Part shown: positions 2 through 55,515 of the stretch, in pieces | How positions within the stretch are numbered: the stretch's first letter is position 1 | How the letters are laid out: the number at the start of each line of letters is the position of its first letter | Translations under genes and position numbers: made by a program | Virus record (IMG/VR): IMGVR_UViG_3300005686_000008 | DNA length: 64,000 bases | Direction: 5' to 3' (one strand) | From: a virus | Lineage: Duplodnaviria; Caudoviricetes | The notes under the pieces: generated by a model | What the model was told of the DNA's origin: nothing | The model's input: the letters and a program-made list of their open reading frames with translations, nothing else | Databases searched by the model: none

Positions 2-2206
2 GACCCTCAAGGAAACTTCGGCTCTGTGGATGGCGATAATGCCGCTGCTGAACGTTATACCGAGGCTCGCCTTTCTTATGCTGGTGCGGCTCTTTTGGAA
101 GACCTTTCTCCAAGAGTCGTTAGGTTCAAGAAAAACTACGACGAGTCAAGGGAAGAGCCTTCCGTACTGCCGGCTAAACTTCCAAACCTCCTTTTGAACG
201 GCTGTTCGGGTATTGCTGTAGGCTATGCAACCAATATCCCTCCGCACAACCTGAGAGAACTTGCAAGGGTCTTTGAGGCCTTTATCAAGAATCCCAATAT
301 TACTCCGCAGGAAATCATCAAGATCATGCCCGGTCCTGACTTCCCAACAGGCGGCGCTCTTCTTGGGCAAGAAGGGGTTCTCGAATACTATCAGACTGGC
401 AAAGGTTCTATCAAACTTGAAGGCATCTATACCATTGAGCCTGATAGCAAAGGAAATGACCAGATCATCATTACTGAGTTCCCCGAGGGAGGCGCTCCCG
501 AGAAGTTTAGGGAAGAGGTTAAAGACCTGATTGATAAGGGCAAGATTGGCGGCATCTCTGATATCGCTAACTACTCTTCCAACAAGATTGGAACAAGAGT
601 AATCGTTGAAATCGGTCGCAACGGAAATGTAAAGACTATTCTCAACCAGATCCTGTCTCATACTTGTTTGAGAGTGTCTTTCTCTGTCAACTCAACAGTC
701 CTTATCAATGGAAAGCTTTACGACAAGGCTCCTATTACCGTTCTGGTAAAAGCCTTCATTGACCATCGTACAGAGGTTCTTACCAACAAGTTCAACGCCG
801 AACTCGCTGATAGTCTTGAAAGAATCGAAATCCTTGAAGGGCTTCTTAGCGTTGCTTCTCATATTGATGAGGCAATCAAGATTGTTCGCGCAAGCGAAAA
901 TCCAGAGGCGGCTGCAAAGGCTTTGATTGAAAGAAAGCTGGTAACAACCGAGCGTCAAGCAAAGGCTGTTCTTGCTATTACTCTTGCAAAGTTGACCAAA
1001 CTTGAGCATAATGCCCTGCTGGAAGAGAAGAAGAAGAAAGAAGAAAGAGTTGCTTGGCTCAATAAGACTCTTGCTAATGTTAATGATATTCTTTCTCTCA
1101 TTATCCAAGAGCAGAAAGAGATTGCTGAAAAACTCGGAGATGACCGTAGAACAAAGATTTCTGGTTCCGCGGAGAACATCATTGAGGCAGACCTTATTCC
1201 TGTTGAAGATGTAGTTGTATGTATCACTACCGACGATTGCATTAAGCGCGTTCCTCTAAAGGAATATCGCAAGCAAAATCGTGGCGGCGTTGGAGTAAGC
1301 TCTGGTTCTTCTAGTGAAGACTTCTGTATGCAGTCTATGTTTGCTGCATCTACTCACGATGACCTTTTGTGTTTCACAGATGGCGGTAGAGCCTTCTCTA
1401 TCAAGGTCTTTGAGCTTCCTGAAACCGGAAGAACGGCCAAGGGTCGTCCTATTATCAACTTCATCAATCTAAAGAATGGCGAAAGGATCTGCGCTTATCT
1501 CCCAATCAAGGGACTTGGAAAGAGCCATACGTTCCTTAACTTCATTAGCGAGAATGGTCTTATCAAGAGGGCAGCGCTTCGCCAGTATGCAAATATCAAC
1601 AAGGGAGGCGTTGTTGCTGTCAAGGTAAAGAATGGAGACAGAATCGTAACCGTTCTTCCTTCTAAGGGAATTGATGACCTTCTTCTTGTAACGCATCTTG
1701 GAATGTCAATCAGGTTCAGCGAACTTGAAGTTCGTATCGGCGGGCGTCAGTCGTCTGGCGTAACTGGTATCAAGATTGGCAACAATGATAAGGTTGTTGG
1801 CGGCATCGTTGTTCCGATGAAGTTTGACAAGGATGGAGACACTATAACTTCGGAGAACGGTCTTACCATGATGACCTTTAGTACAAGGGGTTTCGGTAAG
1901 AGAACCAATGTTGACGAATATCTTGTCTCTCCTGTTGATGGCGGGAAACTCCGTCAGCAATCTCGCGGAGGCAAGGGTCGCATTGATATGAACATTGAAA
2001 AGAAAACAGGCAACTGTAGCGGCGTAATCCCTGTCAGGAATGGCAAGGATATTGTAATCATCACCAAGCAAGGTCAAATGGTAAGAATCCCTGGCGACTC
2101 AATCAAGACAACTTATAGAGGCACTAGCGGAGTAAGGATTGTAAAACTTGGAGATAATGACGAGGCTATCGCAGCTTCCCCGGTTGCTCAGGAAGTTGAA
2201 GAATAA
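2..2206 (+). CDS. gyrA: DNA gyrase subunit A (5' end lies upstream of the window)
   Basis: Frame is open from the window start (DPQGNFGSVDGD). Active-site AAAERYTEARL, GIAVGYATNIPPHNL, GPDFPTGG, and C-terminal propeller repeats with GyrA-box-like QNRGGVG and QSRGGKG. Confidence 0.95.
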   Translation, partial: DPQGNFGSVDGDNAAAERYTEARLSYAGAALLEDLSPRVVRFKKNYDESREEPSVLPAKLPNLLLNGCSGIAVGYATNIPPHNLRELARVFEAFIKNPNITPQEIIKIMPGPDFPTGGALLGQEGVLEYYQTGKGSIKLEGIYTIEPDSKGNDQIIITEFPEGGAPEKFREEVKDLIDKGKIGGISDIANYSSNKIGTRVIVEIGRNGNVKTILNQILSHTCLRVSFSVNSTVLINGKLYDKAPITVLVKAFIDHRTEVLTNKFNAELADSLERIEILEGLLSVASHIDEAIKIVRASENPEAAAKALIERKLVTTERQAKAVLAITLAKLTKLEHNALLEEKKKKEERVAWLNKTLANVNDILSLIIQEQKEIAEKLGDDRRTKISGSAENIIEADLIPVEDVVVCITTDDCIKRVPLKEYRKQNRGGVGVSSGSSSEDFCMQSMFAASTHDDLLCFTDGGRAFSIKVFELPETGRTAKGRPIINFINLKNGERICAYLPIKGLGKSHTFLNFISENGLIKRAALRQYANINKGGVVAVKVKNGDRIVTVLPSKGIDDLLLVTHLGMSIRFSELEVRIGGRQSSGVTGIKIGNNDKVVGGIVVPMKFDKDGDTITSENGLTMMTFSTRGFGKRTNVDEYLVSPVDGGKLRQQSRGGKGRIDMNIEKKTGNCSGVIPVRNGKDIVIITKQGQMVRIPGDSIKTTYRGTSGVRIVKLGDNDEAIAASPVAQEVEE

Positions 2207-2233
2207 GTTTTGATAGCGAAAGGCGCGGTATGT

Positions 2234-2713
2234 ATGAGTTCCGTTAATAGTATTGAAAGAATCCATAAAGTGATTGATGCTTGCACTACAGCGGCTAGGC
2301 ACTTTCTTTTCATCAACAATGAGGAACAAATTCCATTGAACTTTAGGTTTCTAATGCCTGATGGAACAATGGAGCATGTTTCTGAACAATCTCTTCTTGG
2401 ACTTTCTAAAGGGTCAATAGAGGCTCTTATCGGAAGTATCGCAGAAAGACTCAAACCTATTGCTCTTTTCCAGATTTGCGAAGCAAAAAACCCGGATGAC
2501 ATTGACATATTTTGTGTTTCTGCATCCTACAACGTTGACGGTTCGCCTGCATATACTTCTCTTGTTATTCCAATTACAAAAAATGCCGATGGAACTAGAA
2601 CATTGAAAGACGGAATGGGCGAAAGAATAAGTAATTTCGGTTTAGCTGGACGACCTGCTTTCCATTTTGCGTCGAAGACTTTTACCTCAATCAATAGTGG
2701 AGAAAATAAATGA
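2234..2713 (+). CDS. hypothetical protein
   Basis: ORF packed between gyrA and the next gene; ATGA-type overlap region at its 3' end. Confidence 0.6.
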   Translation: MSSVNSIERIHKVIDACTTAARHFLFINNEEQIPLNFRFLMPDGTMEHVSEQSLLGLSKGSIEALIGSIAERLKPIALFQICEAKNPDDIDIFCVSASYNVDGSPAYTSLVIPITKNADGTRTLKDGMGERISNFGLAGRPAFHFASKTFTSINSGENK

Positions 2714-49597: not shown

Positions 49598-50477
49598 ATG
49601 CGTAAGGACATGAAAAAGGTCGTTACTGAGAAGGGCGCTGTCGGAGGCGTCGGCAATTTCATGATCCGCCGCAATCGTCGTCAGGTTAAGAAGGCCTGCT
49701 TGGACGGTAACGAAGACGTTGATTCTCTCAACTTCCACGGAATCAGGAAGGTTCACACCTCCAGCCCCTGTTCTTGGGATAACCTCAAGTCATCGGGGTG
49801 CAACTCGAATGTCATCCGTCGTTACCTCAAGTCCCGTGTTGGCCAGGTGTGGAACGATGTCTACAGCGACATGAGCAAAAACCTGGACCGTAAGGCTCTC
49901 GATAATGTCAACTGGATGGTCGAAACCAAGACTTTCTTTGAGAATGGCAAGATTTGGGTCGCCGGCATCCCTCCCACTGTCCTTGGTTTGTCGTACCATC
50001 GCGATGAGTTCTATGTTGACCCGAGGGACGGGACACTGCGCTGCATGCCGCAGGCCGCAGGCTCCTGGCGGTAAGCATTACGCCGCTCGTCGCATGGAGA
50101 TGATGGACAGGTTCCGCTACATTGATTCAAAGAAACCTCTCGTTCAGTACCACTGCATCAATGGTATTTGGTACGAGATCAAGCTCCGCGAGGCTTCTGC
50201 TTCCGAGAAGAAGGAGAAGTCCTTCGGCGAGTACCGTCGCAACTACAATCGTGCGACTTTCATGCTTGAGACGGAGTGGTGCAGGATTTACAACAACGCC
50301 ATTGTTGACCAGCTTGTTGAAAACCACAGGGAAGCTCTCGTTTTCGAACGTGATAATGTTTGGGAGCTTTGCGTTTCACTGTTTCGCGGTCATTACTTAC
50401 CCATCTCGAAGAGGCAGATTTCCTCGAAGGAGATTCGTCTCGTTAAGGAGTTGATGGAAGAGAGAGACAAGGAGTGA
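49598..50477 (+). pseudogene. hypothetical phage gene split by a 7-nt tandem duplication
   Basis: (GCCGCAG)x2 at 50047-50060; removing one copy joins ORF 49598 in frame to the 49905..50477 frame (RCMPQAPGGKHY). Confidence 0.7.
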
Positions 50478-50518
50478 AGTCTGTAGGACTAAACTTCTGT
50501 AAGTCGAAAAATGTTTGA

Positions 50519-50594
50519 GGGATGCGTGTTGCCGAACGGTTTAGGCTCTCGACTCATAATCGAGGCAATGTGGGTTCAAGTCCCACCCATCCCA
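50519..50594 (+). tRNA. tRNA with CAT anticodon (Ile2 or Met), irregular acceptor/D junction
   Basis: GGGATG/CATCCC, CTCGA-CTCATAA-TCGAG, T arm GTGGG/CCCAC. Confidence 0.7.
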
Positions 50595-50600
50595 TTTGTT

Positions 50601-50672
50601 AGGCTCTTAGCTCAGCGGTAGAGCAGGAAACTCATAATTTCTTGGTCGCCGGTTCGAATCCGGCAGAGCCTA
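50601..50672 (+). tRNA. tRNA with CAT anticodon, probably Ile2
   Basis: Acceptor AGGCTCT/AGAGCCT, loop CTCATAA; body resembles Ile2 tRNAs. Confidence 0.85.
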
Positions 50673-51100
50673 TTTTATGCCGAAAGCAAAAATCAGAGAC
50701 CCCTGGAATGTTGTTGAAGAAACAATAACCAGAGCTGTTCGAAGAGCCTGGGAACGACGCTTGTACAAGCATGTCGAATGTCCCATCAAAGATGATGCTG
50801 AAGTTCAACGTATTATCGACACTGTTTCTGATGAAGTTCTAGTTCAGATCATGGAAACCATCAGCTTTGAGGATTAATAATGAAGCTTACGCAAATTGAA
50901 CAAGGTCAAACGGTAAAATACAAAGGCTCCAACTACGTTGTTATGTTGACCTGGGGAAATCGCGCCATTCTTTCTCCTATTGTAGGAGATCAGCGTATCG
51001 AGGTTGATGTAGGAGAGATTTCTGGACTTGTTCGGGTTTCTCCTGCTCAGCAGTTTGTTTTGGATTCGCAGGCTAAACTTCCGCAGCAGTCCTAGGGGAT

Positions 51101-51490
51101 ATGGCACAACTCTCCCCCAATCCCCATCAGCCCACTGAACCGAATGTCAGCTTTGAGGATTTTTCCCTAGAGGGGATGCGTCGGGCTGACAAGTACGTTC
51201 AAGATTTGATTGACAAGATGCAGCAGAAGGATCCGGACGATCCGAACTGCGACATTCGGGGAGTGATTCTTTCATTCCCTCGGGGCGATGGTGCTGCTTA
51301 CTACATTGTCAGCAAAGTCCGCCCACTGACTGTCGAGCATATTCCTGTCTGCGATGCATGGCGGGCCTATCCGGAAGATCTTGTTTTGAGGGGCATCAAC
51401 AAGGCCTACATCATGGACATCCTCCGCATGGAGAAGAGGATGCGGGGAGCGTTAGGCGTCCGTCAGCGCGGCTGGGCACCCGGCAACTAA
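51101..51490 (+). CDS. hypothetical phage protein
   Basis: FPRGDGAAYYIV...DAW motif; bounded by CTAAACTT motifs at both ends. Confidence 0.65.
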   Translation: MAQLSPNPHQPTEPNVSFEDFSLEGMRRADKYVQDLIDKMQQKDPDDPNCDIRGVILSFPRGDGAAYYIVSKVRPLTVEHIPVCDAWRAYPEDLVLRGINKAYIMDILRMEKRMRGALGVRQRGWAPGN

Positions 51491-51514
51491 ACTTTCTGCG
51501 CGCAAAAAAGAGGC

Positions 51515-51748
51515 ATGGCAAAGACCAAGAAAACCTCGAAGCGCTTCTATTTGATGTATGTTTGCGGAGGGACTGATCCGATGGTACTCGGTCGCTCTCA
51601 CAAGGACTATGATGGCGTTTTGAGGGCGGCTCGAAAGTTTGTCAGGGGAGATGATTACAAAGAGGGCGAGGACGGTGTTTTTTACCTCGTTACTACCAGC
51701 AGAACCGTGAGAGCTGGTTCATTCGACAGTTCAGAACTTGAGGATTAA
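51515..51748 (+). CDS. hypothetical protein
   Basis: ATG 30 nt after motif. Confidence 0.6.
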   Translation: MAKTKKTSKRFYLMYVCGGTDPMVLGRSHKDYDGVLRAARKFVRGDDYKEGEDGVFYLVTTSRTVRAGSFDSSELED

Positions 51749-51751
51749 GTC

Positions 51752-51946
51752 ATGGGTATGGTAAGCAAAGAACTGATGGAAGGCATGGAAGTCAACGTTT
51801 CCGCTCCCGAAGAGGGCGATTCTCATCCCGGTCCTTTTGTGGGACTGGTTGCTGGTATTCAGGAAGATACCATTCTGGTCAAGGATCAGGATGGAAACGT
51901 GTTTGAAATGGGCAAGGCGAGGGTCAAGCCGATTTCTGAGGACTAA
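51752..51946 (+). CDS. small SH3-like hypothetical protein
   Basis: Beta-rich pattern; stop codon lies inside the motif. Confidence 0.55.
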   Translation: MGMVSKELMEGMEVNVSAPEEGDSHPGPFVGLVAGIQEDTILVKDQDGNVFEMGKARVKPISED

Positions 51947-51990
51947 ACTTTCCGCGCAAAAACGGAAGGTATCTCAAAGGGAACAAAGAA

Positions 51991-52167
51991 GTGAAGGATA
52001 ACAGCTTTTGGATTGTGGTTGAAGAGGGGAAGTCACTAGCGAGCGGAATTCGTTGTGACGGCGGAAAGTCGGAAGCCAAGAACCTCCGAAAAGAGATGGA
52101 ACAGCAGGGCGGCAAATGGAAGGCCCTGAAGACGACGAAGAAAGAGATTGTTTCCTCGAACGCTTGA
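51991..52167 (+). CDS. 58-aa hypothetical protein (GTG start; not in ORF track)
   Basis: Open frame VKDNSFWIVVEEGKSLASG...IVSSNA downstream of motif 51941. Confidence 0.45.
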   Translation: MKDNSFWIVVEEGKSLASGIRCDGGKSEAKNLRKEMEQQGGKWKALKTTKKEIVSSNA

Positions 52168-52294
52168 GCTTGAAAAGGTGAAACGAACGAGGATACAATG
52201 AAGAGCATGTTCCTTGGGCCTTTCGATGGCAGCCTGCAAGGGACAACCCACTGCGACGGAAACGACGTAATGGGTGTTTGACGGTTTCTTTGAT

Positions 52295-52621
52295 AAGTGA
52301 ATATGGTAAGCGGTGGCTGAAAACCTAATGTCTATCTCCAGACATAAGGCACTGAGTTTATGGTGACTCAGGTACGAGTAAGCCATTTTGGTGTAGTGCA
52401 GAAGGAAAACGGGTATCCGGCAAAGGCCATAGGAAAACCGTTGGGGCGCTAAAATCTCGACTGGCCATACTAACAATGACCAGGGGAGCGGGATTGCAGG
52501 TAACCATTCCTGCCTCGGAGAGACCTGATTCGAAGCGGGTTTCATTGATGAGTCGCATAATAACATCAGGATGGACGAAAATTCAGAGGCTAGTAACCTC
52601 TGCCGCTTACCATGTTCACTT
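52295..52621 (+). ncRNA. large structured RNA domain (unassigned)
   Basis: Closed by a 20-bp long-range helix AAGTGAATATGGTAAGCGGT/GCCGCTTACCATGTTCACTT; many internal hairpins; no credible + strand ORF. Confidence 0.7.
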
Positions 52622-52636
52622 TTCAATGGAGGTTTT

Positions 52637-52753
52637 ATGTGGTACAAAGTAGAACACAATCCACCGGATGATGACAACAGCGGTAGCGATTCGAATTGCC
52701 CTTGCGGTGATTCTGATTGCGACGGCGGCGGTAGCGATGGCGATTACGATTGA
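52637..52753 (+). CDS. 38-aa acidic Asp/Gly/Ser/Cys-rich peptide
   Basis: GGAGG SD; MWYKVEHNPPDDDNSGSDSNCPCGDSDCDGGGSDGDYD. Confidence 0.55.
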   Translation: MWYKVEHNPPDDDNSGSDSNCPCGDSDCDGGGSDGDYD

Positions 52754-52934
52754 ACCAATAGGGTCGTGTCGAACTTCTCCGTAGTAAGTTGACATGCTCC
52801 TAGCCGATGCAAGCGGCGAAGATTATGACGGAGCGTTGGGCTACGACTGAGCGGTAGCAGCGAATCCACTGTGCGGTGCAAGCCGAAGTTCAGCGGCAAT
52901 CAACTCCTGCAAGAGTTGGATTGCATTTACAGAT

Positions 52935-53010
52935 TGCGGAGTAGAGGAGTCTGGCCGTCCTCGTCTGGCTCATAACCAGGAAATCGCAGGTTCAAATCCT
53001 GCCTCCGCTA
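52935..53010 (+). tRNA. tRNA-Met(CAT), initiator-like
   Basis: Unpaired 1:72 (T:T), GCGGAG/CTCCGC, loop CTCATAA, T loop TTCAAAT. Confidence 0.88.
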
Positions 53011-53083
53011 TTCAAGGATTGGTCGCCTTGTAAATCAACAGACCTATTCTGTGTACTTAGGGTCGCTCCCTCGGGAAAGAATA

Positions 53084-53158
53084 ACGCCCAAAGCCTAAAT
53101 GGTGAGGCACTCGGCTTTCATCCGAGGTATCTAAGGTTCGAATCCTTAGTGGGATGTT
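53084..53158 (+). tRNA. tRNA-Glu(TTC)-like, irregular acceptor stem
   Basis: D arm GCCT/AGGC, CTCGG-CTTTCAT-CCGAG, T arm CTAAGG-TTCGAAT-CCTTAG; acceptor needs a bulge. Confidence 0.6.
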
Positions 53159-53477
53159 CCGTTCGAGTAGGTAGAACTTCTTAGAGATGGAGTAGGTCTA
53201 GTAAAACCTGAAAAGGTCGAAAAACCGTAGATAACTTTTCTGAGAAAGCCCTCACTGAGGGAAAATCCTATCTAGAGCGCCATCTAGATCGGTGTCAAGA
53301 ACCACCGAGAGGCGCAGTTGAGATGTTGGGTGAAACTCCCTTCATTCTCGCTTTCAGTAGACCCACGTTGGTATGAGGCTCGCCTCGGCAAGACCTGCAC
53401 CCAACCTCTGGGAGAGCAAGAACTGAACCGTATACTCGATGCATGCCCGGGGTTTAAAACGGTTCTCTACTGGATTT

Positions 53478-53523
53478 CGCCGTCAGAGCTACCGCAAGGA
53501 AAACTCTGGCGGCGTTTTCTTTT
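53478..53523 (+). terminator. intrinsic terminator closing the ncRNA region
   Basis: CGCCGTCAGAG...CTCTGGCGGCG followed by TTTTCTTTT. Confidence 0.8.
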
Positions 53524-53679
53524 GTAGGCAGGCTAAACTTTTAGCCGATATGAGGGGGACTTATCCAGACCTTTTCCCTGTCTGGCTAAACTTTCGTACC
53601 AAAAAGGGATACTGTCTTACCCAAATCCTCTACCTTGTCGGAACGAGTAGGTTTGGGTACTTTAGTAGGAGTCCTCAAC

Positions 53680-54597
53680 ATGAAGTTCTTTGCATCTCTT
53701 CTTGCGTTAGTCTGTGCTGTGGTAGCGTTTGCCCAGCCCATTCCACCGAAGGCTACGGCTGGTCCTGCGGTGGCTTCTCTCGATGATGTCGTCATTGACG
53801 AAGGCCCTCTGGTTTATTACCCGGCTCGCGACCCCCTCGCCTATATGGGGCAGGCGTGCTACGACCAGATGGAGCTGACCTGTTTCGGCGTTCAGACCAA
53901 TCAGACCGTTTGGAACCTCGACCTCAGTTCTCCGCCCACTGGCAACTACGCAAGCGGGCTGACTCGCAGCAACCTTCCGTTCAATGTGCAGTTCTCCGTC
54001 TTCATCGTTCGTGATGTGGATGACCCTTCTTTGGACCGTATGGGTACTTGGTATGGCGTCATCAGCGGCGATAACGGGAGTTTTCACTGCGGAGGTTACT
54101 ACTTCGAGCTTGGAGGCTTTGCGTCTATTGTCCCTCTTTATGCTCGCAGCGAGCAGGCGGAGATGTTCTCGATTCACGAGAATCTTTTGAGCTTGAGCGA
54201 CGGCGGCGGCTACGATGGTCGCCAATGGAACTGCGCTCTTGACGAAACTGCATTGTTCCAGGCGCAGCAGAACTACATCAACGCCACCGCATGTGCGGAT
54301 GCCCATTTCAATCGCTACATGGGCATCGCCCTCTCTTGTACGGCGATTGGAGTCGGCTCTTGCTGGATTTCGTTCGGAGCCGGCTGTATCGGCGCGCTCA
54401 TCTGCGATGGAGTCATTCTCATCAAGGATATCTTCTGGCAGCGCGAGTTCATGGGCGAGCAGAACCGCGCTCGGTCATGCCTCTGCCTTGAGTCCAACTG
54501 GCGCACGGCTCACCCCGGACAGCCGATTCCGAACTCGTCTTGCGGCGATTTCCATTGTCCTGACTCTCCCGGAGTTGATATCCCCAAGCTCGACTAA
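53680..54597 (+). CDS. secreted Cys-rich protein
   Basis: AGGAG SD, signal peptide MKFFASLLALVCAVVAFA, hydrophobic Cys/Gly hairpin near the C-terminus. Confidence 0.7.
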   Translation: MKFFASLLALVCAVVAFAQPIPPKATAGPAVASLDDVVIDEGPLVYYPARDPLAYMGQACYDQMELTCFGVQTNQTVWNLDLSSPPTGNYASGLTRSNLPFNVQFSVFIVRDVDDPSLDRMGTWYGVISGDNGSFHCGGYYFELGGFASIVPLYARSEQAEMFSIHENLLSLSDGGGYDGRQWNCALDETALFQAQQNYINATACADAHFNRYMGIALSCTAIGVGSCWISFGAGCIGALICDGVILIKDIFWQREFMGEQNRARSCLCLESNWRTAHPGQPIPNSSCGDFHCPDSPGVDIPKLD

Positions 54598-54635
54598 ACT
54601 TTCTTTGGAAGTTTATTTTCTCAAAGGAAGAATCA

Positions 54636-54806
54636 ATGACAACGCTTCAAATTTCCATCTCCCTCATGCTCTTGCTCCTTGTCTCGCTCTTTATTCGGGC
54701 GAAGCGTAAGGGCATGAAAATGGACGGTCGGACGGTTGGACTTGGAATCCTCTTGGGTATTGGGTTGGCTTTCGGCCTTCCGCTCTTGTTCAACCTGCTT
54801 TCGTAA
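54636..54806 (+). CDS. 56-aa two-helix membrane protein (not in ORF track)
   Basis: AAGGA SD; MTTLQISISLMLLLLVSLFIRAKRKGMKMDGRTVGLGILLGIGLAFGLPLLFNLLS; terminator follows. Confidence 0.55.
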   Translation: MTTLQISISLMLLLLVSLFIRAKRKGMKMDGRTVGLGILLGIGLAFGLPLLFNLLS

Positions 54807-54825
54807 TCCATCCTGTCCATCTTAG

Positions 54826-54871
54826 ACTCCCCATCCCTACTCGCTGTACGGGGTGGGGAGTTTTTCTTTTT
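54826..54871 (+). terminator. intrinsic terminator
   Basis: ACTCCCCATCCC...GGGGTGGGGAGT followed by a T tract. Confidence 0.75.
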
Positions 54872-54957
54872 GCAGGCTAAACTTTGCTGGGCGAAATGCA
54901 AAGAGTCAGAAGCAGAGGAGTATCTGCCTGACAAGGTTCATAAGATGGAGAAAGCAA

Positions 54958-55515
54958 ATGTCTGACACCGCGACGAAGAAGGAGAAGAAGGCCAAGGCGA
55001 AGAAGCCCGTTGAGGCAACTCCGACTGCGGCTCCCGTTGAGGCTCCGCAGGACACTGCGCCGGTTCTGGAGGCGAAGGTTGATGCGGTCCCCGAGGCGAA
55101 GCCCGAGGACGCGAAGACCGATTCGGCGAAGCGCAAGAAGAAGAACACGACCGTTGCGGTCATCGACCCCTCGAACCCCGAGAGCGTGACACAGTTCCTC
55201 AGCGAGTTCCTCGCTCAGTCGGCTGCTCAGCCTCCGACGAAGGGCTACGACCAGCACGTGAACCGCGAGGGCTTCGTCCATGCGGGGACGGCTCAGCGGC
55301 TCAGCAACGGCGGCATCTCGAACATGCTGGCGGTTCAGTTCGACATCCTGGCTCGTCGTTCGCTCGATGGCGACAAGGCTGCTGGCGAGTTCTATGACGC
55401 CATGCTGAACTTCGCCACGAGCCGGCGCGACCAGCTCAAGGCCGAGCGCAAGGCGAAGATTCTCGCCGAGGCGGAGGCCATTCGCGCTGAGGAGGCTGCG
55501 AAGGCGAACGCCTAA
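54958..55515 (+). CDS. hypothetical protein, paralogous C-terminus with 55759 gene
   Basis: GGAG SD, GC-rich codons, ends AKILAEAEAIRAEEAAKANA. Confidence 0.7.
   Translation: MSDTATKKEKKAKAKKPVEATPTAAPVEAPQDTAPVLEAKVDAVPEAKPEDAKTDSAKRKKKNTTVAVIDPSNPESVTQFLSEFLAQSAAQPPTKGYDQHVNREGFVHAGTAQRLSNGGISNMLAVQFDILARRSLDGDKAAGEFYDAMLNFATSRRDQLKAERKAKILAEAEAIRAEEAAKANA

What the first reader, a model, noticed from the sequence alone, without database searches (positions are those of the whole stretch)
52170..53523. 1.3 kb mostly non-coding, highly structured transcription unit punctuated by tRNAs
Seen in sequence: putative promoter TTGAAA-N18-TACAAT (52170-52199) and a strong terminator at 53478-53523. 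Between them lie a 327-nt domain closed by a 20-bp helix (52295-52621), a hairpin at about 52758-52802 whose loop CTCCGT could pair with ACGGAG near 52828, a small pseudoknot candidate (CAAGG/CCTTG with GGTC/GACC, 53013-53044), and a domain closed by TCGAGTA/TACTCGA (about 53163-53439). tRNA-Met and a tRNA-Glu-like gene separate these blocks. Established: large ornate RNAs such as GOLLD and ROOL occur beside phage tRNAs. Inference: one large or several tRNA-released ncRNAs; I cannot assign a family by eye.
Basis: partly seen in the sequence, partly recalled or inferred. Interest (0 to 1): 0.7.

Follow-up and report, generated by a model that had tools for sequence, protein, structure and literature searches.

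The report
Self-pairing structured RNAs beside phage initiator tRNA
A 370-kb uncultured phage and about a dozen relatives carry a gene-free string of folded RNA modules around their initiator tRNA gene. No RNA database describes these modules, and two of them keep a self-complementary loop, so they probably pair with copies of themselves, as the ornate phage RNAs GOLLD and ROOL do.

Summary
The stretch is real, non-coding and structured. No Rfam 15 family matches except two tRNA hits.

I recovered 13 distinct homologues, all from uncultured-phage contigs, by following the conserved 58-aa gene upstream.

- **Domain A (52295-52621):** 51 of 96 base pairs show compensatory changes, against 7-12 in slid controls. 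Its closing helix is 21-26 bp in most members.
- **tRNA:** an initiator-type tRNA-Met (52935-53010) follows domain A in every locus read far enough.
- **Pseudoknot (53013-53044):** this H-type knot covaries in both stems.
- **tRNA-like element (53087-53154):** it has a short acceptor stem and its anticodon is not conserved.
- **Module D (53160-53345), domain B (53354-53476) and the terminator** complete the unit. Domain B has 23 of 50 pairs with compensatory changes.
- **Promoter:** a sigma-70-type promoter is conserved upstream.

New here: a loop in domain A is UUCGAA or UUGCAA. A 9-nt loop in domain B always holds a 6-nt palindrome, in four versions. Compensatory changes preserve both palindromes. 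This points to kissing-loop self-association.

Modules are gained, lost and reordered between phages. The biological function is unknown.

The parts
51991..52167 (+). Conserved 58-aa lysine-rich protein gene immediately upstream. It is context, and was used to find the relatives.
   Evidence: It has 14 homologues and is 52-79% identical across them. The AlphaFold model has pLDDT 86.5 and a beta-beta-alpha-beta-alpha fold, with no PDB match. No Pfam family.
52170..52199 (+). Sigma-70-type promoter, TTGAAA-N18-TACAAT
   Evidence: Consensus scan scores 10 of 12. In relatives it reads TTGACG-N17-TACAAT or TTGACA-N16-TAGAAT at the same place, in 8 of 11 loci.
52206..52290 (+). Conserved leader, about 75 nt with hairpins
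   Evidence: nhmmer matches at the same position in L058, L006, L055, L048, L041, L005 and L054; alignment A8.
52295..52621 (+). Domain A: 327-nt multi-branched RNA closed by a 20-bp helix (16 helices in the consensus)
   Evidence: MFE z-score -5.8. CM R1 finds it in 14 loci at 103-371 bits. 95.9% of cells are paired and 51 of 96 pairs are compensatory, against 7-12 in slid controls. The closing helix is 21-26 bp in 9 members and longer but mismatch-interrupted in the window and L057.
52529..52534 (+). Palindromic loop UUCGAA of domain A (helix 14 loop)
   Evidence: The loop is UUCGAA in 7 sequences and UUGCAA in 4. The centre swaps CG to GC, so self-complementarity is kept. At least 3 switches are needed on a tree that is poorly resolved.
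52637..52753 (+). Window-specific insert holding a 38-aa acidic, Cys-containing ORF behind a GGAGG Shine-Dalgarno sequence
   Evidence: Read in sequence. Absent from G001 and G002. No Pfam family.
52756..52928 (+). Module E: a conserved long hairpin (about 52762-52800), then a 12-bp terminator-like hairpin (about 52893-52921) followed by AUUU
   Evidence: Conserved in G001 and L047, with compensatory changes in the second hairpin. In L047 the module lies upstream of domain A. Terminator-like site.
52935..53010 (+). Initiator-type tRNA-Met (CAU) with a conserved U1-U72 mismatch and no encoded CCA
   Evidence: Rfam tRNA 53.3 bits; ARAGORN. A CAU tRNA follows domain A in all 11 loci that read that far. 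The L042 copy is 90% identical to the E. coli metZWV genes. Alignment.
53013..53044 (+). H-type pseudoknot. Stem 1 is 53013-53017 with 53026-53030. Stem 2 is 53021-53024 with 53041-53044.
   Evidence: Across 7 sequences both stems are 100% paired, with 3 compensatory pairs each.
53046..53082 (+). Conserved two-part hairpin following the pseudoknot
   Evidence: Helices 3 and 4 of alignment A15 have 7 compensatory pairs.
53087..53154 (+). tRNA-like element: canonical T arm, a 4-5 bp acceptor stem, and an anticodon that is not conserved
   Evidence: Rfam tRNA 38.9 bits. The anticodon loop reads UUC here, an 8-nt loop with UUCA in G002, UCC in G001, UUU in L043 and L055, and AUU in L047. The T arm is degenerate in L042 and the element is absent in L041.
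53160..53345 (+). Module D: a structured module present in only some members
   Evidence: Absent from G001 and G002. nhmmer homologues in L043 and L056. 15 of 39 predicted pairs are compensatory in 3 sequences.
53354..53476 (+). Domain B: a branched RNA of about 123 nt closed by an 8-bp helix
   Evidence: CM R2 finds it in 7 loci at 109-224 bits. 96.4% of cells are paired and 23 of 50 pairs are compensatory, against 1-5 in controls. In G002, L041, L047 and L055 its closing helix starts within about 3 nt of a tRNA or tRNA-like 3' end.
53441..53446 (+). Palindrome GCAUGC at positions 3-8 of the 9-nt loop of domain B
   Evidence: All 7 sequences have a 6-nt palindrome at the same loop positions: GUAUAC three times, GCAUGC once, GCGCGC twice and GGAUCC once. 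The self-pairing columns are 100% paired, and 2 of the 3 pairs show compensatory change.
53478..53523 (+). Intrinsic terminator: a 13-bp G+C-rich stem followed by a U tract
   Evidence: Helix 7 of A12 has 7 compensatory pairs; sequence. The phage's own promoter-like motif GGCTAAACTT follows at 53531.

Best explanation
The stretch is an array of separate, stably folded non-coding RNA genes built around the phage's initiator tRNA gene.

How it most likely works:
1. A host-type (sigma-70) promoter at 52170-52199 drives a long precursor. In some relatives extra phage-type promoters also feed in.
2. The tRNA and the tRNA-like element act as punctuation. RNase P and a 3' tRNA endonuclease, cutting at these CCA-less genes, would release the neighbouring RNAs.
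3. The 21-26 bp closing helix of domain A is long enough to be an RNase III processing stalk.
4. The released domain A (327 nt) and domain B (about 123 nt plus the terminator) each expose a hairpin loop whose centre is a 6-nt palindrome. Through it they pair with a second copy of themselves, in the manner of the HIV-1 DIS, giving homodimers or larger RNA-only assemblies like those of OLE, ROOL and GOLLD.

Shown here: the folds, the covariation, the maintained palindromes, the linkage to the initiator tRNA, and the conserved promoter and terminator.

Inferred: transcription, the processing steps, actual dimerisation, and any role in translation initiation or tRNA handling.
For: - No Rfam family matches apart from tRNA.
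- Domain A is 85-88% identical in DNA between phages whose neighbouring 665-aa protein is only 55-57% identical.
- Covariation is strong. Domain A has 51 of 96 compensatory pairs against 7-12 in controls. Domain B has 23 of 50 against 1-5. The pseudoknot spacer has 13 of 20 against 0-3. Module D has 15 of 39.
- No open frame is conserved.
- Palindromic loops are kept by double changes. Domain A has UUCGAA or UUGCAA, with at least 3 switches. Domain B has four different palindromes at fixed loop positions and is 100% self-complementary. Positions 5-6 are adjacent and 4-7 are two bases apart, so they cannot pair within one loop. Only pairing in trans explains the pattern.
- An initiator-type tRNA-Met follows domain A in all 11 loci.
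- In G002, L041, L047 and L055 the closing helix of domain B starts within about 3 nt of a tRNA or tRNA-like 3' end.
- The promoter is conserved in 8 of 11 loci, and the terminator is conserved.
- The closing helix of domain A is 21-26 bp in 9 of 11 members and longer but mismatch-interrupted in the other two.
- GOLLD and ROOL lie near phage tRNA islands and assemble through kissing loops (10.1101/2024.12.08.627333).
- HIV-1 DIS palindromes include GCGCGC and GUGCAC (PMC5874298).
Against: - There are no expression data.
- Only 13 distinct sequences are known, all from metagenomes. All were found through one neighbouring gene, so the linkage to that gene is partly an effect of how they were found.
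- The tree is poorly resolved, so the counts of independent loop switches are rough.
- Domain A's loop has only two variants.
- Domain B is missing in L042 and L043, and the tRNA-like element is missing in L041. The modules therefore do not form one obligatory machine.
- In G002, L054 and L047 a phage-type promoter motif sits 25-27 nt before the tRNA, so co-transcription is not universal.
- The alignments were fitted to the covariance models, which leans the pair counts towards the structure.
Confidence: 0.6

Rival explanations
1. Domain A is a cis-acting sensor (riboswitch-, T-box- or attenuator-like leader). It would control read-through of the terminator-like hairpin at about 52893-52921 into the initiator tRNA gene.
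For: - Domain A always lies upstream of the initiator tRNA.
- A conserved terminator-like hairpin lies between them in the window and in G001.
- Earlier notes of this scan report leader-peptide attenuators in front of other tRNA clusters of the same phage (untested here).
Against: - The spacer between domain A and the tRNA ranges from 53 to 344 nt and is unrelated between phages. In the window it carries a 130-nt insert.
- The hairpin module lies upstream of domain A in L047.
- G002, L054 and L047 have a separate promoter motif directly before the tRNA.
- There is no T-box or riboswitch hit.
- A closed 21-26 bp helix leaves no obvious alternative pairing with an expression platform.
Confidence: 0.12
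2. The modules are only processing and stability spacers for tRNA maturation, like the spacers and stalks of rRNA operons. They would have no function of their own after release.
For: - Modules abut tRNA ends.
- A long closing helix could be an RNase III site.
- The pseudoknot lies directly after the tRNA 3' end.
- The set of modules varies between phages.
Against: - A 327-nt, 16-helix fold held at 85-88% identity, with invariant unpaired stretches, is far more than a spacer needs.
- Processing does not explain palindromic loops maintained by compensatory change.
Confidence: 0.12
3. The stretch is debris or cargo of mobile elements that target tRNA genes, such as homing-endonuclease cassettes or degenerate introns.
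For: - L055 and L057 carry a truncated 5' half of the initiator tRNA directly before a complete copy.
- Modules are reordered between phages.
- A group I intron lies 2.4 kb away in G002.
Against: - There is no intron or ribozyme hit in the stretch.
- There is no endonuclease ORF.
- Pervasive compensatory change shows that the folds themselves are under selection.
Confidence: 0.06
4. The region encodes protein, for example the minus-strand ORF 52036..52677.
For: A 213-aa frame is open on the minus strand in the window.
Against: In G001 and G002 every one of the six frames across domain A has 1 to 16 stops. The substitutions are of the compensatory RNA type.
Confidence: 0.01

Closest known systems
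GOLLD and ROOL RNAs (ornate RNAs of phages and prophages)
   Same: They lie in or next to phage tRNA islands. GOLLD env-38 lies downstream of a Met-tRNA, and tRNAs can sit in the GOLLD linker between a less conserved 5' region and a conserved 3' region. They are multi-helix folds with no known protein partner, and they form homo-oligomers through kissing loops and A-minor contacts (10.1101/2024.12.08.627333).
   Different: There is no match to either covariance model, even at E<=10. The modules here are much smaller (327 and about 123 nt, against about 580 and over 800 nt). They are gained, lost and reordered independently. Assembly here is inferred from sequence only.
HIV-1 dimerisation initiation site (DIS) kissing loop
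   Same: It is a hairpin loop whose centre is a 6-nt palindrome. The palindrome varies between strains but stays palindromic, for example GCGCGC and GUGCAC (PMC5874298). Domain B even has GCGCGC in two members. From memory, the DIS loop is also 9 nt with the palindrome at positions 3-8.
   Different: The biological setting is unrelated: a retroviral genome against a small phage RNA. No packaging role is implied. Dimerisation was not tested here.
Stable RNAs C and D (species 1 and 2) of the phage T4 tRNA gene cluster
   Same: They are small stable RNAs of unknown function, encoded among phage tRNA genes, co-transcribed with them and released by tRNA-processing enzymes.
   Different: There is no sequence relationship (the blastn search of phage records found only the tRNA). 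The T4 RNAs are shorter, and no self-complementary loops are known for them.
phi29 pRNA
   Same: It is a phage-encoded RNA whose function depends on intermolecular loop-loop pairing into a ring. Covariation between related phages keeps the loops complementary (from memory).
   Different: pRNA uses two different complementary loops, not palindromes. It lies next to the packaging genes. Nothing here links these modules to DNA packaging.
manA RNA motif
   Same: It is a short natural RNA, found partly in cyanophages, now shown to form cages and other oligomers through kissing loops (10.64898/2026.07.01.735769).
   Different: It is a different fold, it gave no Rfam hit here, and its context is a 5' UTR.

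Membership tests
GOLLD RNA (Rfam) | Match to the family covariance model | tested here: not met
   No hit at gathering score in the whole window. No hit at E<=10 in 50000-55000.
GOLLD RNA (Rfam) | Location beside phage tRNA genes, with tRNA possible in a variable linker between two conserved regions | tested here: met
   The window holds 17 tRNA genes. A tRNA-Met and a tRNA-like element lie between domains A and B. This is a resemblance of context only.
ROOL RNA (Rfam) | Match to the family covariance model | tested here: not met
   No hit.
RNase P RNA, tmRNA, T-box, group I/II introns, 6S, Y RNA (Rfam) | Match to any of these covariance models over domain A | tested here: not met
   Scanning 52270-52650 alone with lax filters gave only one chance-level snoRNA hit, E 0.49. 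ARAGORN found no tmRNA.
Bacterial initiator tRNA-fMet | tRNA fold with CAU anticodon | tested here: met
   53.3 bits against a 29-bit threshold; ARAGORN calls CAT.
Bacterial initiator tRNA-fMet | Unpaired position 1:72 | tested here: met
   U1 opposite U72 in nearly all 10 copies, while the rest of the acceptor stem covaries. In E. coli the mismatch is C1:A72 (established knowledge).
Bacterial initiator tRNA-fMet | Three consecutive G-C pairs at the bottom of the anticodon stem | tested here: not met
   The window copy has two G-C pairs above a U-A pair (sequence). L042 nearly keeps the E. coli-like GGGCUCAUAACyCG arm (y is U in L042, giving a G-U pair) and is 90% identical to metZWV. The family is therefore initiator-derived, but the window copy has diverged.
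Canonical decoding tRNA (for 53087-53154) | 7-bp acceptor stem and an anticodon conserved among orthologues | tested here: not met
   The acceptor stem is 4-5 bp. The anticodon loop reads UUC, UUCA in an 8-nt loop, UCC, UUU or AUU in different phages.
DIS-type self-complementary kissing loop | Hairpin loop with a central 6-nt palindrome that stays palindromic when it changes | tested here: met
   Domain B has 4 variants, all palindromic at loop positions 3-8, and 21 of 21 cells are paired. Domain A has UUCGAA or UUGCAA.
DIS-type self-complementary kissing loop | Physical formation of a homodimer | not testable with these tools
   Needs native gels, SEC-MALS or cryo-EM.
Intrinsic terminator | G+C-rich hairpin followed directly by a U tract | tested here: met
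   Present at 53478-53523. The stem covaries in 7 sequences.
Sigma-70 promoter | -35 and -10 hexamers at 16-18 nt spacing, conserved in position | tested here: met
   The transcription start was not mapped.

The most novel reading that the evidence does not exclude
Domains A and B are protomers of a new RNA-only quaternary assembly (dimer, ring, cage or filament) that is made early from a host promoter together with the phage's own initiator tRNA. The assembly would act on translation initiation, for example by holding or delivering initiator tRNA, or by engaging ribosomes.
Probability: 0.2. Interest if true: 0.85.

Novelty: new variant of a known kind. Interest (0 to 1): 0.72.

Why it matters
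Natural RNAs that build quaternary structures on their own were recognised only recently (OLE, ROOL, GOLLD, manA), and what they do is still unknown.

This locus offers two small, well-delimited RNAs (327 and about 123 nt). Their self-association is predicted from evolution alone, through palindromes kept by compensatory change. That makes the prediction cheap to test by native gel and cryo-EM.

The fixed position next to an initiator tRNA gives a concrete functional lead that GOLLD and ROOL lack. The locus also shows that such RNAs can be modular and can be exchanged between phages.

Tried and rejected
- **Rfam:** gathering and E<=10 scans of the window, the 5-kb surroundings and domain A alone gave only tRNA hits.
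- **Known phages:** blastn against 50,697 phage records matched only the tRNA-Met.
- **Exact-pattern scans:** scans of viral contigs, metagenome contigs and reference genomes returned the two close relatives plus chance matches. Those inspected by eye lie in what looks like coding DNA, and none was confirmed by CM R1.
- **Protein routes:** searches through the 305-aa and 129-aa neighbours gave nothing useful. The 665-aa ATPase gave G001, G002 and G005, but the G005 contig ends before the locus.
- **Known RNA classes:** resemblances to RNase P, tmRNA and T-box that I recalled by eye were not borne out by the models or by the helix topology, so I dropped them.
- **A-to-B pairing:** a search for covarying pairs between domains A and B found nothing convincing. 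One lead remains, where GUGCA of A could pair with the B loop, or GUGC with GCAY inside A. It rests on a single change in the long-branch sequence L056.
- **Paralogues:** the phage holds no second copy of domain A, of module D or of the relatives' extra module.
- **58-aa protein:** the structure model found no PDB match at E<=0.001.
- **Literature:** the survey of about 10,000 candidate viral RNAs (PMC10690425) could not be checked for this motif.

Full report
**Setting.** The window is part of a 370,652-bp IMG/VR virus record. It holds 17 tRNA genes on the plus strand. It also holds about 45 exact copies of the phage's own promoter-like motif RRCTAAACTT (59 matches with one mismatch allowed, 19 expected). 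That motif occurs at 51941, 53531 and 53584 but not inside 52170-53523. The stretch is bounded instead by a sigma-70-type promoter and a strong terminator.

**Check of the observation.** Domain A folds far better than shuffled sequence, z = -5.8. The 53155-53530 stretch does so only weakly, z = -2.5. No Rfam 15 family other than tRNA matches. This holds at E<=10, and also when domain A is scanned alone with lax filters.

**Finding relatives.**
- Known phage genomes share only the tRNA.
- A neighbouring 665-aa ATPase led to two IMG/VR contigs, G001 and G002. There the protein is 55-57% identical, but domain A is 85-88% identical in DNA and the 3' block 82-86%.
- Exact-pattern scans of viral, metagenome and genome collections added only chance hits. 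Those inspected look like coding DNA, and none was confirmed by CM R1.
- The productive route was the 58-aa gene just upstream. It has 14 homologues. The contigs that encode them carry domain A downstream in every lineage with enough sequence, except possibly P0011, where only about 600 nt were available.

**Structure.**
- *Domain A.* In 13 distinct sequences, 95.9% of cells are paired. 51 of 96 pairs show a change on both sides, against 7-12 when the partners are slid. With only the three closest sequences the figures were already 15 against 0-2. The closing helix is 21-26 bp without a double mismatch in 9 of 11 members. In the window and L057 it is longer but interrupted by single mismatches.
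- *Domain B plus terminator.* 96.4% of cells are paired, and 23 of 50 pairs are compensatory against 1-5.
Both stems are 100% paired in 7 sequences, with 3 compensatory pairs each. A two-part hairpin follows.
- *Module D.* The window-only stretch 53160-53345 is not junk. It has homologues in L043 and L056, with 15 of 39 compensatory pairs.
- *Coding potential.* No reading frame across domain A is open in the relatives. This removes the minus-strand ORF.

**What was not upheld.**
- The 'domain closed by TCGAGTA/TACTCGA' joins module D to the first half of domain B. In relatives without D, domain B is complete and directly follows a tRNA or tRNA-like element.
- The CTCCGT/ACGGAG loop pairing can neither be supported nor rejected.

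**The tRNAs.**
- A CAU tRNA follows domain A in all 11 loci. Several copies are plainly initiator tRNA. The L042 copy is 90% identical to the E. coli metZWV genes.
- Nearly all copies keep an unpaired U1-U72 while the rest of the acceptor stem covaries. The window copy has diverged in its D arm and anticodon stem.
- The second element has a good T arm but a 4-5 bp acceptor stem. Its anticodon changes from phage to phage, and it is absent or degenerate in two lineages. I read it as punctuation or a mimic, not a decoder.
- None of these genes encodes CCA, so 3' endonucleolytic processing is expected (established knowledge of tRNA maturation).

**The new point.**
- *Domain A.* The loop of helix 14 reads UUCGAA in seven sequences and UUGCAA in four.
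- *Domain B.* The 9-nt loop of helix 6 holds a 6-nt palindrome at positions 3-8 in all seven sequences, in four versions: GUAUAC, GCAUGC, GCGCGC and GGAUCC. Treated as pairs (3-8, 4-7, 5-6), all 21 cells are complementary and two of the three pairs show compensatory change.
- *Why this implies pairing in trans.* These positions are too close together to pair within one loop. Selection must therefore act on pairing between two copies of the same loop, that is, on a kissing homodimer.
- *Independent events.* On a poorly resolved tree the states need at least 3 changes (domain A) and 4 changes (domain B).
- *Precedents.* The same logic underlies the HIV-1 DIS, whose palindromes include GCGCGC and GUGCAC (PMC5874298). 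It also underlies the quaternary kissing loops of OLE, ROOL and GOLLD (10.1101/2024.12.08.627333).

**Organisation.**
- The promoter is conserved in position. It reads TTGACG-17-TACAAT in most loci, TTGACA-16-TAGAAT in L047 and TTGAAA-18-TACAAT here.
- Between the fixed points the content varies:
  - Relatives have an extra module of about 200 nt before domain A, which the window lacks.
  - The window has a 130-nt insert with a small ORF after domain A.
  - Module E lies after domain A here but before it in L047.
  - Domain B is missing in L042 and L043.
  - Three lineages have a phage-type promoter motif 25-27 nt before the tRNA.
- This modularity argues for several independent RNA genes, not one giant RNA, and against a cis-regulatory leader.

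**Mechanism and its status.** The folds, the covariation, the palindromes and the linkage to the tRNA are shown. The following are inferred:
- transcription from the host-type promoter;
- release by RNase P, a 3' tRNA endonuclease and perhaps RNase III at the long helix;
- self-association of domains A and B.

The biological role is open. The constant neighbour, an initiator tRNA, and the report that GOLLD pulls down ribosomes point towards translation. That is a lead only.

**Novelty.** The kind is known: ornate, self-assembling phage RNAs in tRNA islands. These families are not in Rfam 15, and I found no paper describing them. New features are the DIS-like palindromic loops, the small size, the shuffled modules and the fixed link to the initiator tRNA.

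Noticed in passing
window 52637-52753: A 38-aa acidic, Cys-containing ORF (MWYKVEH...DGDYD) sits 4 nt behind a GGAGG, in an insert that G001 and G002 lack. The opposite strand would encode a hydrophobic 59-aa peptide (52616..52795).
   Followed up: partly
L055 about 1216-1265 and L057 about 871-920: A truncated 5' half of an initiator tRNA, ending in or just after the anticodon loop, lies directly before a complete but differently built tRNA-Met.
   Followed up: partly
L006 1935-2140 (-) and L005 about 2060-2240 (-): Relatives carry a further conserved non-coding module of about 200 nt between the leader and domain A. It is absent from the whole 370-kb record of the window.
   Followed up: partly
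L006 1841-1934 (-): In G001 a 94-nt tRNA-like gene with an odd anticodon loop, and what looks like an encoded CCA, ends about 15 nt before the closing helix of domain A.
   Followed up: no
L047 4563-6522: A stretch of about 2 kb has no called gene. It holds module E, domain A, the initiator tRNA, a tRNA-like element and domain B, with two tandem AACTAAACTT motifs before the tRNA.
   Followed up: partly
L043 3032-3105: A relative carries a tRNA with anticodon CUA, which ARAGORN calls 'tRNA-Pyl'. It is an amber-suppressor-type tRNA, so this phage lineage may read UAG as a codon.
   Followed up: no
L013 11846-12061 (-): A group I intron (Rfam, 61 bits) lies 2.4 kb upstream of the locus in G002.
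   Followed up: no
window 51991-52167: The 58-aa lysine-rich protein is always encoded just before the promoter. Its confident model (beta-beta-alpha-beta-alpha) has no PDB match. It could be an RNA partner, but its adjacency is partly a result of how the loci were found.
   Followed up: partly
window 52399-52403 with 52555-52558; alignment A10 columns 95-98 with 305-308: GUGC in the invariant UAGUGCAGAAGGA stretch could pair with GCAY in the invariant single strand, instead of forming helix 6. The only change (GUCC in L056) is matched by GGAC, and it breaks helix 6.
   Followed up: partly
window 50528-50587: A partial tRNA hit (36.6 bits, model positions 7-64) lies directly before the tRNA-Met at 50601-50672.
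   Followed up: no
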